Of a stretch of DNA of 64,000 nt, positions 12,441-56,620 are shown in pieces. The position numbers and the translations under genes are program-made. Where the stretch lies: assembly GCA_964016885.1 (NCBI GenBank), contig OZ024742.1:282410001-282474000 (forward strand), given 5' to 3'. Below the pieces are notes generated by a model that ran no database searches, was not told where the DNA came from, and saw only the letters and a list, made by a program, of their open reading frames with translations. Source of the stretch: Eledone cirrhosa. Lineage: Eukaryota. Every line of letters starts with the position of its first letter. The stretch's first letter is position 1.

Positions 12441-12822
12441 GTTAAAAGAATAGAGGTGTAACACACAAGTTATTATATATTGGTAAACGGAATAGAAAAT
12501 GCTGACAAATTGTTCACAGTTGAAAAATGGTTTAATTAGGAATAAAAGAGTATTAGTGATTGTATGGGTTAGTATTCGGTTGTGGTTTTAAGTTTTTAAG
12601 TTTTTACCGGTTGCGCATTTTTCAACTGTGAACAGCACGGACACTCTATCTCAAAATTATTTTTGAAAAGCATTTAGAAATGCGCAACCGGTAAAAACTT
12701 AAAAACTTAAAACCACAACCGAATACTAACCCATACAATCACTAATACTCTTTTATTCCTAATTAAACCATTTTTCAACTGTGAACAATTTGTCAGCATT
12801 TTCTATTCCGTTTACCAATATA
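12441..12822. mobile_element. Fold-back insertion in (TA)n with an HHR-like motif on the + arm (12660-12697)
   Basis: About 145-bp inverted arms (about 12476-12620 / 12678-12822); ttt TTGAAAA GCATTT ag AAATGC GCAA CCGG TA aaa. Confidence 0.7.
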
Positions 12823-12851
12823 TATATATATATATATATATATATATATAT

Positions 12852-14505
12852 ATTAAAATACAAATATTAATAAAATAGATGTTCTTTTGAAATATACCTA
12901 CGGCACTTTAAAATCTAAAGTTTAAAACAGATTCAAACTTATATATAAATGTGAGTTTTTGGTGCGTTTTTGATCACTTATTTATAATATAATGTATTAT
13001 AATATGTATGTAATTATATATTATATTTTATATATTTTTAAATATACCCATCACATTTCTATATACATGATTCAAATATAGAGAAAATATCCAAACTAAA
13101 AATTATTATAGACATTATTTTGAACTCTGAATTATCCATGCACTTATTATTGTTTTTCTTATATATATGTATTTAAATGTAACACGTTGAACTCTATTTT
13201 ATAAAATTATAACCGTTATCATTTACTGCACCACTAATACCTAATATATATCTATATATACCTCCCTATATCTTCCTATACATAATTTTTAGTTAACTTC
13301 TAAATTTCTTGATTATGTATACTCTGAACTAAGAATAATTAATGCATTTACACCCAGTTATATATAGGTGTATATTTAATCTTAACATGCCTCAATCTAT
13401 TATTTTATTTTTATTCTCGTTATTATTTACCTAAAATATACTGGCTCATTAATATATATCTATATACATAATCGTTATTTAAATATTTCTACCAATAAAT
13501 ACTTCAGAAGCTTTACATACCTAATATGTTGGTATCTTCGTTAAAGAATAATTAATGCATTTACACCCAGTTATATATAGCTGTATATTTAATCTTAACA
13601 TGCCTCAATCTATTATTTTATTTTTATCTTCGTCGTTATTATTTACCTAAAATATACTGGCTCATTAATATATATCTATATACATAATCGTTATTTAAAT
13701 ATTTCTACCAATAAGTACTTCAAAAGCTTTACATACCTAATATGTTGGTATCTTTGTTAAAGTTTAAATTTAGGAAAATAATCAACAGTATAAAATGTCA
13801 TTTTTGATGCGCCAGCTAAATCCTTTAAATGTTACCCTCATAAAACTCAGAAGCTTAGAAAAGTTAACACACTTATAGAATTTATAAAACTAATATATAA
13901 ATAACCGGCAAAAAAATCCCGAAATCTTGATTCTTCACCTTAAAATTATAAATTAAATATTTTCAAAATTAACCGTTTAACTTTCTGGAAAAATCTCCTT
14001 CTGCATATATCACCCCCCCCCCCCTCCTTATCTTCCCCTCTCTATAAATCCTTTTCCAGGGGCTATCACTGGCTGTTATGATTCATGAGATGTTTTCATA
14101 GATAAATTGCAGTATCATACATTTTAAAATGTCTATAACTGTTACATTAAACAACGTTTTTCTTACTCATACATCCTCTATTGAATTTATTACGTTTTCG
14201 CATTTTCTCATAATTAGGGTATAAATGTTAAATTTTCTCTTAGGTTAATCACTACCTTGATTAAATCTTAACCATTTAACATCTCAGGGTATGTCATCTA
14301 TCATTATATTTTGTCTGATGAGGACGTACTGTTGTACATCCGAAATATGTATAATAAAATGTAATTGATCAAAAGAACATCTATTTTATTAATATTTGTA
14401 TTTTAATATTAATAACTCCGGAAAATTATTTTTCTTGTAGAGTGCTTCCAATCTACTGTAAAACTCATTCTTTGACATACTCATTGAATATTGTTTAACA
14501 CTTTA
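12852..14505 (+). mobile_element. AT-rich non-coding PLE-type remnant with short inverted 5' copy and 3' hammerhead
   Basis: 12852-12890 is the reverse complement of about 14369-14408; internal ~213-bp direct duplication (13331-13760); HHR at 14303; flanked by (TA)n. Confidence 0.55.
14303..14365 (+). ncRNA. Type I hammerhead ribozyme
   Basis: attatattttgt CTGATGA GGAcGTAC tgtt GTACaTCC GAAA tatgta TA ataaaatgtaat; 12-bp stem I. Confidence 0.8.
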
Positions 14506-14758
14506 ATATATATATATATAGAGAGAAAGAGAGAAACACACAGATGCATGCGGACACATACATATACATGAATATATCCACATATATCCTTGAGTTAGTG
14601 GTACCATCCTCAACCGATGTTGCTCTATGAATAACTGGGATAAACTAATCCGAATGGATTAGATTGATTCAGTATCAGAGCTATATAATACATTATAAAG
14701 AGAGAAGAAACATTAGATATAATTAATAAGATGCATCATACCCAAACTGCTTCTTGAG

Positions 14759-14851
14759 TCCCCGACTACGTAGTTTCGTGGCATATTATGCAAAAACACT
14801 ACATCACAGAGATATAGAATGTTTGTGAGGTCTGCCGACTTATCAAGAGGA
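14759..14851 (-). ncRNA. Type I hammerhead ribozyme, U3:A8 variant
   Basis: tcctc TTGATAA gtcggca...tgccac GAAA CTACGTAG TC gggga; palindromic stem III, GUC site. Confidence 0.7.
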
Positions 14852-53634: not shown

Positions 53635-53718
53635 ACCTTTACCGATCGGTTTCGAATCCCAAAAATAAAACGTAGGCCATACGGCCCTCGTTGCAAAGAG
53701 AGATTCTCGTCAGAAGGT
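53635..53718 (-). ncRNA. Type I hammerhead, array unit L1 (also 54118-54201 and 54601-54684)
   Basis: acctt CTGACGA GAATCTC...GGGATTC GAAA CCGATCGG TA aaggt. Confidence 0.85.
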
Positions 53719-55012
53719 TCTTTTCATTCAAAGAATATAAAATTCCTGAATTTAAATCACAAACTAGCGCTATCAAAGACTGTTCCTGGGATGAGAGTGG
53801 ATGATGTAGAACAGGTTTATCAAGGGCCGTAGTAAAGATAGAGGCAAAAGGAGGTAGGTCGAACTAGCCACCGCTGTTATCAGCAGCAGTCGGAATGACC
53901 CGGTTTGTTCTCAACGTATGTGGAGGTAGTAGTAATATGAAATACGTCCTTTCACGCACAAGGCGTCAAGGTACGCATGTATTGTCCAACCAAGTGCCAG
54001 TGTGGTTCAATGGCGGGTTAATAAATTAACGAGCCAGAACAAATATAAACAAGGTTTAGTAAATAATGAAAAAGTTTCAAAATAAATTTTAAAAAATTGA
54101 CTTTACCTACTATAGTTACCTTTACCGATCGGTTTCGAATCCCAAAAATAAAACGTAGGCCATACGGCCCTCGTTGCAAAGAGAGATTCTCGTCAGAAGG
54201 TTCTTTTCATTCAAAGAATATAAAATTCCTGAATTTAAATCACAAACTAGCGCTATCAAAGACTGTTCCTGGGATGAGAGTGGATGATGTAGAACAGGTT
54301 TATCAAGGGCCGTAGTAAAGATAGAGGCAAAAGGAGGTAGGTCGAACTAGCCACCGCTGTTATCAGCAGCAGTCGGAATGACCCGGTTTGTTCTCAACGT
54401 ATGTGGAGGTAGTAGTAATATGAAATACGTCCTTTCACGCACAAGGCGTCAAGGTACGCATGTATTGTCCAACCAAGTGCCAGTGTGGTTCAATGGCGGG
54501 TTAATAAATTAACGAGCCAGAACAAATATAAACAAGGTTTAGTAAATAATGAAAAAGTTTCAAAATAAATTTTAAAAAATTGACTTTACCTACTATAGTT
54601 ACCTTTACCGATCGGTTTCGAATCCCAAAAATAAAACGTAGGCCATACGGCCCTCGTTGCAAAGAGAGATTCTCGTCAGAAGGTTCTTTTCATTCAAAGA
54701 ATATAAAATTCCTGAATTTAAATCACAAACTAGCGCTATCAAAGACTGTTCCTGGGATGAGAGTGGATGATGTAGAACAGGTTTATCAAGGGCCGTAGTA
54801 AAGATAGACACATACGTTGAGAACAAACCGGGTCATTCCGACTGCTGCTGATAACAGCGGTGGCTAGTTCGACCTACCTCCTTTTGCCTCTATCTTTACT
54901 ACGGCCCTTGATAAACCTGTTCTACATCATCCACTCTCATCCCAGGAACAGTCTTTGATAGCGCTAGTTTGTGATTTAAATTCAGGAATTTTATATTCTT
55001 TGAATGAAAAGA

Positions 55013-55096
55013 ACCTTCTGACGAGAATCTCTCTTTGCAACGAGGGCCGTATGGCCTACGTTTTATTTTTGGGATTCGAAACCGATCGGTAAAGGT
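55013..55096 (+). ncRNA. Type I hammerhead, array unit R1 (also 55496-55579 and 55979-56062)
   Basis: Canonical core, 5-bp stem I, 7-bp stem II with internal ggcc gtat ggcc hairpin, palindromic ACCGATCGGT stem III, GUA cleavage triplet. Confidence 0.88.
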
Positions 55097-56620
55097 AACT
55101 ATAGTAGGTAAAGTCAATTTTTTAAAATTTATTTTGAAACTTTTTCATTATTTACTAAACCTTGTTTATATTTGTTCTGGCTCGTTAATTTATTAACCCG
55201 CCATTGAACCACACTGGCACTTGGTTGGACAATACATGCGTACCTTGACGCCTTGTGCGTGAAAGGACGTATTTCATATTACTACTACCTCCACATACGT
55301 TGAGAACAAACCGGGTCATTCCGACTGCTGCTGATAACAGCGGTGGCTAGTTCGACCTACCTCCTTTTGCCTCTATCTTTACTACGGCCCTTGATAAACC
55401 TGTTCTACATCATCCACTCTCATCCCAGGAACAGTCTTTGATAGCGCTAGTTTGTGATTTAAATTCAGGAATTTTATATTCTTTGAATGAAAAGAACCTT
55501 CTGACGAGAATCTCTCTTTGCAACGAGGGCCGTATGGCCTACGTTTTATTTTTGGGATTCGAAACCGATCGGTAAAGGTAACTATAGTAGGTAAAGTCAA
55601 TTTTTTAAAATTTATTTTGAAACTTTTTCATTATTTACTAAACCTTGTTTATATTTGTTCTGGCTCGTTAATTTATTAACCCGCCATTGAACCACACTGG
55701 CACTTGGTTGGACAATACATGCGTACCTTGACGCCTTGTGCGTGAAAGGACGTATTTCATATTACTACTACCTCCACATACGTTGAGAACAAACCGGGTC
55801 ATTCCGACTGCTGCTGATAACAGCGGTGGCTAGTTCGACCTACCTCCTTTTGCCTCTATCTTTACTACGGCCCTTGATAAACCTGTTCTACATCATCCAC
55901 TCTCATCCCAGGAACAGTCTTTGATAGCGCTAGTTTGTGATTTAAATTCAGGAATTTTATATTCTTTGAATGAAAAGAACCTTCTGACGAGAATCTCTCT
56001 TTGCAACGAGGGCCGTATGGCCTACGTTTTATTTTTGGGATTCGAAACCGATCGGTAAAGGTAACTATAGTAGGTAAAGTCAATTTTTTAAAATTTATTT
56101 TGAAACTTTTTCATTATTTACTAAACCTTGTTTATATATATATATATATATATATATATATATATATATATATATATATATATATATATATATATATATA
56201 CTTGCTAATCTCCCCGTCCTTTGGACGTTTCAAGTAGCTTTCGATTTAGCTCATTAAACTAAACAAAGTAAATTTGAATACATAGAAGAAAAACGTACTT
56301 TATGTAGACATGAAAACCTTAGGCACTATTCCAGCGAAATAATTAATATGTGAGCTCGGTGTCTGATTTTGACAACAGTAAAAGCGCATCATGAAATAGA
56401 GAAGTGAAGTGAATAATAGACACTATTATCTACAAAGCATAATATCGTAAAAGTTATGACATCACTTAATGTATGAACATCAAGGAAGCGTACCTTTTGT
56501 TTCAAGTCCAAAGAGTAAATTTAAATCCGAATGAGCCGAATTACGAAAGATAACTCTTGTCTTACTTAAAGATAACTCTTGTCTTACTTAATCACGAAAA
56601 TTCAAACAAATAAGCGAAAC

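What the first reader, a model, noticed from the sequence alone, without database searches (positions are those of the whole stretch)
12441..56135. Consistent polarity rule: fold-back insertions are head-to-head with 3' ends facing outward into (TA)n
Seen: in ten separate inverted structures (12441-12822, 12852-14505, 17142-18127, 23393-24327, 32400-37142, 37716-38177, 41186-41566, 44335-44585, 48829-49400, 53454-56135), the HHR or ORF is on the minus strand in the left arm and/or the plus strand in the right arm, never the reverse. Known: inverted 5' pLTR copies and TA-microsatellite targeting are described for PLEs. Inference: both ends of a cut TA tract prime reverse transcription and the two cDNAs are joined, or the RT template-switches onto its own cDNA. 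This would generate abundant long dsRNA (potential A-to-I editing substrates) in any host intron.
Basis: partly seen in the sequence, partly recalled or inferred. Interest (0 to 1): 0.72.

Follow-up and report, generated by a model that had tools for sequence, protein, structure and literature searches.

The report
Two-ended Penelope insertions in TA repeats
These back-to-back mirror repeats are the already described insertion pattern of Penelope-like jumping genes, and across the genome their two arms nearly always stop at two different fixed points, which suggests that each side of the cut DNA likely starts its own copy rather than one copy folding back.

Summary
The rule is real but published. 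All ten structures exist and are head-to-head. In 118 blind 10-kb stretches, oriented inverted repeats without an inner (TA)n were 75 head-to-head and 0 tail-to-tail; pairs split by (TA)n were 9 and 7. A control repeat gave 17:18. PMC3846280 already calls head-to-head the most frequent arrangement; PMC8557442 describes the inverted 5' copy, one-sided tail and (TA)n targets. Added here: arms end at two fixed sites, one of each (16 of 16 and 27 of 27 pairs in two families). Arms share subfamily variants. In 9 of 30 very young pairs neither arm contains the other, and 10 of 85 blind units have non-overlapping arms. This favours priming from both cut ends over fold-back and rejects independent neighbours. 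dsRNA and editing are untested and do not depend on polarity. This scan reached the same reading before on other DNA.

The parts
12441..12817 (.). Head-to-head pair: left arm minus with ~39-nt tail (12441-12479); right arm plus, short end; U3-A8-type hammerhead-like core 12663-12693 (+) with GCAA for GAAA; spacer belongs to the short-end arm
12854..14505 (.). Head-to-head pair: 37-bp left arm (minus, short end); long right arm with hammerhead 14315-14353 (+) and ~100-nt tail
17143..18125 (.). Head-to-head pair of a Hydra-type PLE 3' end: left arm minus with endonuclease C-terminus (CxxC 17689, CxH motif from 17632) and hammerhead-like core 17165-17205; right arm plus, core 17970-18010 (U4A variant), ~94-nt tail; spacer on the short-end arm
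23395..24389 (.). Head-to-head pair, family 4: hammerheads 23471-23500 (-) and 24218-24247 (+), U3-A8 core; left short end, right 65-nt tail; spacer on the tail arm
31796..31990 (.).
32200..32414 (-). Different hammerhead element (core 32239-32287) that forms the left end of the large structure
32410..35341 (-). Near-full, broken Hydra-type PLE: 5' pLTR with hammerhead-like core 35269-35299; RWK 34889, DKT 34643, RT YRDN 33955, CxCX5C 32700, YIG 32602; lacks its own 3' end
35341..37139 (+). 5'-truncated inverted copy of the same PLE: CxCX5C 36078, YIG 36176, CxxC 36368, 3' pLTR with hammerhead-like core 36887-36917, tail end into (TA)n
37612..38172 (.). Head-to-head pair: left minus arm with tail and long-stem-II hammerhead-like core 37779-37846; 68-bp right arm, short end
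41048..41565 (.). Head-to-head pair, 185-bp arms, hammerhead-like cores 41247-41366 (-) and 41383-41502 (+), ~135-nt tail on the left
44339..44627 (.). Small decayed pair; hammerhead-like core 44395-44474 (-), read by eye only; ~35-bp arms; tail on the right
48831..49404 (.). Head-to-head pair, 119-bp arms; weak hammerhead-like core 49066-49127 (+); ~90-nt tail on the right
53455..56132 (.). Retrozyme-like array of 483-bp hammerhead monomers: three cores on minus (left arm, tail end) and three on plus (right arm, short end 110 nt earlier); blunt junction at 54808/54809; neither arm contains the other

Best explanation
Each structure is one insertion of a Penelope-like retrotransposon end or a non-coding hammerhead repeat, with two arms back to back in a (TA)n tract, likely made when both 3' ends of the cut tract primed reverse transcription, one at each of two fixed start sites on RNA of one source element, and the two truncated cDNAs were joined. 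Shown: head-to-head polarity, one short and one tailed end per pair, shared subfamily variants, junctions with 0-5 nt overlap or small inserts. Inferred: cutting of both strands by the GIY-YIG endonuclease, two separate primings, end-joining or mutual annealing of the cDNA 3' ends, and trans-mobilisation of the non-coding families. Polarity follows from target priming, which always fixes the element's 3' end to the target. Whether both cDNAs copy one RNA molecule (tandem, circular or by strand displacement) or two sibling RNAs is not resolved.
For: 75 head-to-head and 0 tail-to-tail without inner TA among 91 oriented events in 118 blind stretches; unit census 85 '-+', 1 '+-', 1 '-+-', 122 single. 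Ends: 52 one-sided tail, 4 symmetric by script, 13 other, 6 at an edge, of 75. Family 4: 16 of 16 pairs have one of each end. 483-bp family: all 30 exact tail ends in the genome were read; 27 pair with a short end, 3 are solo, none pairs with another tail; no opposite-strand short/short pair within 10 kb among the first 100 of 246 short ends listed. Neither arm contains the other in 9 of 30 pairs. Ten blind units, plus L184 and L185, have non-overlapping arms. Arm concordance: 3 discordant sites against 23.6 on shuffling; 10 of 586 against 17%. In vitro, the anole PLE cuts and extends both strands and starts at two sites that bound the tail (PMC11167929).
Against: PMC11167929 saw no difference in start site between strands, so it does not predict the strict one-of-each rule. 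Most pairs overlap, so the same template region was copied twice, which simple L1-style twin priming on one linear RNA does not give. 13 of 30 young pairs are nested as fold-back predicts. Many blind events are near-perfect palindromes centred on a hairpin (gap 0), which fold-back explains equally well. Junction overlap is enriched (mean 1.6 against 0.68 nt in 23 of 38 junctions), which fits either model. The spacer bias (11 short-end arm, 3 tail arm, of 52) is not significant (p 0.057). No biochemical test was done here.
Confidence: 0.72

Rival explanations
1. Fold-back: one target-primed cDNA hairpins or template-switches onto itself and is copied back to a fixed internal site; staggered cases arise from later deletion at the palindrome centre.
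For: 13 of 30 young pairs are nested under the tail arm. Many zero-gap palindromes centre on a natural hairpin. Arms share variants, and junction microhomology is enriched.
Against: 9 of 30 pairs of a family with near-identical copies have neither arm inside the other, and in 8 more the tail arm matches only an internal unit of the short arm. Tail-only arms face short-end arms with no shared sequence. The spacer is not biased to the tail arm.
Confidence: 0.14
2. Self-priming on an antisense transcript gives a head-to-head hairpin that the endonuclease resolves with a staggered cut (model in PMC3846280, with the tail as a resolution product as suggested in PMC8557442).
For: Explains polarity, palindromic junctions and a one-sided tail.
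Against: One arm must then be a copy of the other, which fails for non-overlapping arms. The spacer falls on either arm type. Solo copies end at the same two sites. Target-primed starts at both tail boundaries were seen in vitro.
Confidence: 0.08
3. The arms are independent neighbouring insertions of different ages.
For: True for pairs separated by a TA tract: 9 head-to-head and 7 tail-to-tail; L011 and L200 are tail-to-tail across TA.
Against: No TA at the inner junction, 75:0 polarity, one-of-each ends, and haplotype concordance.
Confidence: 0.02
4. Fold-back artefacts of long-read assembly.
For: One structure has 1244/1244 identical arms.
Against: Arms differ by up to about 20% in other events, ends are fixed and asymmetric, and public-run contigs show left-arm-to-right-arm joints in 15 of 15 displayed rows, 53 not shown (possibly the same sample, library not on record).
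Confidence: 0.01

Closest known systems
Insertion units of endonuclease-bearing PLEs with inverted 5' pLTR and optional tail (Arkhipova et al. 2013, PMC3846280, passages seen; Craig et al. 2021, PMC8557442, passages and section 11 seen)
   Same: Adjacent inverted 5'-truncated copy, head-to-head stated as most frequent, tail on one end, palindromic junctions, (TA)n targets, N-rich insert between RT and endonuclease.
   Different: Those passages give no genome counts. Tails here are 34-160 nt rather than 30-40. The one-of-each rule is near-strict, and non-overlapping arms occur. PMC3846280 favours antisense self-priming.
Hydra clade of C-terminal EN+ PLEs (PMC8557442 section 11)
   Same: RWK, DKT, CxCX5C linker, CxxC and CxH around the catalytic E/N, hammerhead in the pLTR, (TA)n insertion.
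   Different: Structure 5 spans more than the typical <3 kb unit and carries an N-rich insert; this copy is broken; no tree was built.
Anole Poseidon PAc in vitro (Frangieh et al. 2024, PMC11167929, parts 1-2 of 4 read)
   Same: Both strands cut and extended; two internal start sites bounding the tail; AT-rich targets.
   Different: No strand preference of start site reported; inverted products not examined in the parts read; different clade.
Metazoan non-LTR retrozymes (PMC7229834, passages; bioRxiv 10.64898/2026.07.22.740005, part 1 of 5)
   Same: Tandem monomers with one type I hammerhead each, no ORF, proposed PLE derivation.
   Different: The 483-bp monomer is slightly above the 150-450 bp quoted. 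'Inverted' does not occur in PMC7229834, and 'retrozyme' with 'head-to-head' gave 0 papers.
L1 twin priming (recalled; no paper on it read here)
   Same: Two target nicks prime two cDNAs that are joined with an inversion.
   Different: In L1 the second priming site is variable and the two cDNAs do not overlap; here it is fixed and the arms usually overlap.

Membership tests
EN+ Penelope-like element (structure 5) | PLE-type RT followed by a GIY-YIG endonuclease | tested here: met
   ESM Atlas feature hits 0.91-0.95 to HTH_animal/RVT_1/GIY-YIG clusters; RT then YIG motif order; Pfam scan itself gave no hit
EN+ Penelope-like element (structure 5) | pLTRs with hammerhead motif | tested here: met
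   299-bp repeats 35043-35341 and 36845-37142 with U3-A8 cores; stem I weak
EN+ PLE insertion unit | Adjacent inverted 5'-truncated copy, head-to-head | tested here: met
EN+ PLE insertion unit | Tail on one end only | tested here: met
   tails longer than the 30-40 bp in print
EN+ PLE insertion unit | Target-site duplication | not testable with these tools
   Flanks are (TA)n; PMC8557442 notes the same limit
Hydra clade | RWK, DKT, CxCX5C linker, CxxC/CxH | tested here: met
   CxH seen in structure 3, not in structure 5
Hydra clade | CCHH motif absent from the endonuclease | tested here: inconclusive
   A loose pattern hit only frames other than the YIG frame; frames are broken and no alignment was made
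Hydra clade | Phylogenetic placement of the RT | not tested
   no tree built
Non-LTR retrozyme (structure 10) | Tandem non-coding monomers each with a type I hammerhead | tested here: met
   483-bp period, six cores
Non-LTR retrozyme (structure 10) | Self-cleavage and linear/circular RNA | not testable with these tools
   No RNA run available; indirect hints only
Type I hammerhead ribozyme | Match to a curated Rfam model | tested here: not met
   0 hits at gathering threshold; motifs rest on my own pattern scan (0 hits at score >=12 in 78 shuffled loci) and on reading by eye
ADAR substrate | Transcribed, with A-to-G changes in RNA | not testable with these tools
   no RNA data

The most novel reading that the evidence does not exclude
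PLE integration is a coordinated double priming: a dimeric enzyme cuts both strands of (TA)n and loads one DNA end on each of two fixed start sites of a single RNA, so every two-armed insertion has one short and one tailed end. In the 483-bp retrozyme family, hammerhead self-cleavage also sets where many cDNAs stop (21 of 87 arm 5' ends within monomer positions 290-316, cut site at 298). This would replace the fold-back and antisense models and give the hammerhead a role in transposition.
Probability: 0.4. Interest if true: 0.62.

Novelty: new member of a known kind. Interest (0 to 1): 0.4.

Why it matters
The polarity itself is known PLE architecture. How the inverted structures form is named as open in PMC8557442. 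The counts here discriminate between models and give a direct in vitro test. At 75 events per 1.18 Mb, a rough extrapolation gives on the order of 10^5 such hairpins in this 3.0-Gb genome. That could matter for dsRNA load: Penelope is heavily edited in a lizard (PMC5625713, passages). That step is untested here.

Tried and rejected
Rfam found no hammerhead. Pfam missed the PLE frames. My first two hammerhead scans missed U3-A8 and long-stem-II variants. The first orientation pass was contaminated: of 1366 inverted HSPs, 170 scored head-to-head, 88 tail-to-tail, 755 ambiguous and 353 unassigned, driven by an abundant non-hammerhead repeat and one satellite locus. Before the count I dropped four library entries, trimmed one (conflicts) and added seven window segments oriented by eye. 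Inverted repeats that could not be oriented are not counted. The library also held tail arms taken from the head-to-head events, so that census is partly circular. Raw arm-to-arm divergence in family 4 (0-8 of about 124 sites, between-locus mean 6.7) was uninformative; only diagnostic sites discriminated. TA microhomology at the short end averaged 2.4 nt with no background computed. No RNA holder listed. No host exon was recognised in 88 of 216 candidate frames plus 9 earlier frames; this does not show the window is intergenic. One RNA versus two could not be decided: 5 variants in 3 of 38 pairs are shared by both arms and absent from other pairs, which fits either. Literature searches; 'twin priming' with 'Penelope' gave 3 listings, none read and none on PLE mechanism by title. 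Supplements of PMC11167929 and PMC8557442 were not opened and may hold related counts. Older subscription papers on PLE structure were not searchable.
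Full report
Setting. The window is G000:C3:282410001-282474000 of a 3.0-Gb genome, dense in (TA)n tracts. The host was not identified.

Observation. Self-alignment recovers all ten inverted structures. Hammerhead-like cores or PLE motifs lie on minus in the left part and/or on plus in the right part in all ten. Four were found by my pattern scan. Six were read by eye and located; those in structures 8 and 9 are the weakest. 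Rfam finds none. Structure 5 encodes a broken RT plus GIY-YIG polyprotein with Hydra-clade motifs, and structure 3 holds a matching endonuclease C-terminus. Structure 10 is an ORF-less 483-bp hammerhead array.

Genome-wide test. I fetched 118 stretches of 10 kb at round coordinates on the large contigs, chosen without seeing them, and oriented inverted repeats with a library of hammerhead-plus-downstream segments. Without an inner TA tract: 75 head-to-head, 0 tail-to-tail. With one: 9 and 7, as expected for separate insertions. An abundant non-hammerhead repeat, 177 copies, gave 17 and 18. A census of TA-bounded units gave 85 '-+', 1 '+-', 1 '-+-' and 122 single-orientation units (partly circular library).

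Single event. In 16 family-4 pairs the arms disagree at 3 subfamily-diagnostic positions, against 23.6 on shuffled pairing. In 38 pairs of the 483-bp family they disagree at 10 of 586 comparisons, against 17%. Gene conversion between arms could add to this concordance.

The outer ends differ. Of 75 events, 52 have one arm abutting (TA)n and the other carrying a further 25-170 nt; 4 scored symmetric, 13 other and 6 at an edge. Two of the 4 are asymmetric on reading (L074, L099). The ends are fixed per family. With a query lacking the tail, 16 of 30 family-4 loci were head-to-head pairs, all with one short and one tailed end. For the 483-bp family all 30 exact tail ends were read: 27 face a short end and 3 are solo. 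Among the first 100 of 246 listed short ends, no two lie on opposite strands within 10 kb. Solo copies use either end, with family-specific preference. Independent choice of site would make at least half of all pairs symmetric (p about 5e-12 for 4 of 56).

Two primings or fold-back. A fold-back copy must be contained in the strand it copies. Of 30 one-of-each pairs of the young family, 13 are nested under the tail arm, 8 have a tail arm that matches only an internal unit of the short arm, and 9, including the window's own, fit neither way (8 further pairs with diverged ends not included). In the blind set the spacer could be assigned in 14 of 52 events: 11 to the short-end arm and 3 to the tail arm. 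Ten of 85 units have arms that share no sequence, a tail-only piece facing a short-end arm; all ten were inspected, L113 with a long unassigned spacer and L142 decayed. L184 and L185 show the same. These structures have the polarity without any inverted repeat, so 'fold-back' does not describe them. Junctions: 23 of 38 overlap by 0-5 nt (mean 1.6 against 0.68 at random) and 15 carry 1-28 extra bases, as expected for end joining or a short anneal. Later central deletion remains an alternative for staggered cases.

Mechanism. Target-primed reverse transcription fixes the element's 3' end to the target (established knowledge), so priming at both ends of a break must give outward-facing 3' ends. 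The anole PLE cuts and extends both strands and starts at two sites bounding the tail (PMC11167929). I infer that each DNA end primes at one of two sites on RNA from one source and that the cDNAs are joined. The one-of-each rule implies a coupling that was not seen in vitro. It is easiest to explain with one RNA bound by a dimer, but two sibling RNAs are not excluded.

What is known. PMC3846280 describes the adjacent inverted pLTR, the tail on one of the inverted pLTRs and head-to-head as most frequent, and proposes antisense self-priming (passages). PMC8557442 generalises the structure, notes (TA)n targeting and calls its formation unresolved (passages; section 11). Searches found no paper stating twin priming for PLEs or head-to-head retrozymes, within a library that lacks most subscription papers. 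Earlier reports of this scan, on this and other genomes, reached the same two-site, two-end reading; they are not independent support.

dsRNA. Arms of about 30-590 bp would pair if transcribed, whatever their polarity. Penelope is heavily edited in a lizard and palindromic repeats in a frog (PMC5625713, passages). Nothing here shows that this window is transcribed or intronic.

Verdict. Observation confirmed and generalised; architecture known; double priming at two fixed sites favoured (0.72); interest 0.4.

Noticed in passing
483-bp family (window 53455-56132; L209-L278): Arm 5' ends pile up at monomer positions 290-316, around the hammerhead cut site (298): 21 of 87 against 4.9 expected; neighbouring windows hold 4 and 7. 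Both end types and multi-monomer arms contribute. The interval was chosen after seeing the data.
   Followed up: partly
L248, L249, L252: A rare variant recurs in every or nearly every monomer of an array (C409T x7, C245T x3, G253A in both arms), as expected for a circular or tandem template.
   Followed up: partly
family 4, window 24175-24183 and homologues: 5' ends of paired and solo copies cluster about 43 nt upstream of the hammerhead core (q566-574), perhaps the RNA 5' end; not at the cut site.
   Followed up: no
window 17970-18010, 17165-17205, near 5345-5385; L092: Family-wide U4A hammerhead core (CAGAAGA) in an abundant Hydra-type family; activity unknown.
   Followed up: no
window 37779-37846, 41383-41502, 44395-44474; L073: Hammerhead-like motifs with 47-101-nt stem II regions.
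   Followed up: no
L041, L054, L059, L062, L123, L142: Abundant mini-family with an 80-nt tail whose near-perfect palindromes centre on a hairpin just upstream of the short end.
   Followed up: partly
window 32200-32414: A second hammerhead family replaces the 3' end of the large PLE's left arm: later insertion, deletion or template switch.
   Followed up: no
window 33092-34360 and genome: The PLE family has at least 99 scored relatives at about 80-92% protein identity, some with open frames over 900 aa; N-rich insert between RT and endonuclease.
   Followed up: no
window 7284-9371, 45162-45524: Very abundant ~180-220-bp tandem/dispersed repeat without a detected hammerhead; orientation of neighbours is random.
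   Followed up: partly
window 42793-43251: Old ~70%-identical inverted repeat not oriented by the hammerhead library; possibly a DNA-transposon remnant.
   Followed up: no
window 5483-6266, 15423-16833, 27981-28679: Fragments with C2H2 fingers, a zinc knuckle and an endonuclease-like stretch, and an RVT_1 hit; probably LINE remnants (my reading).
   Followed up: no
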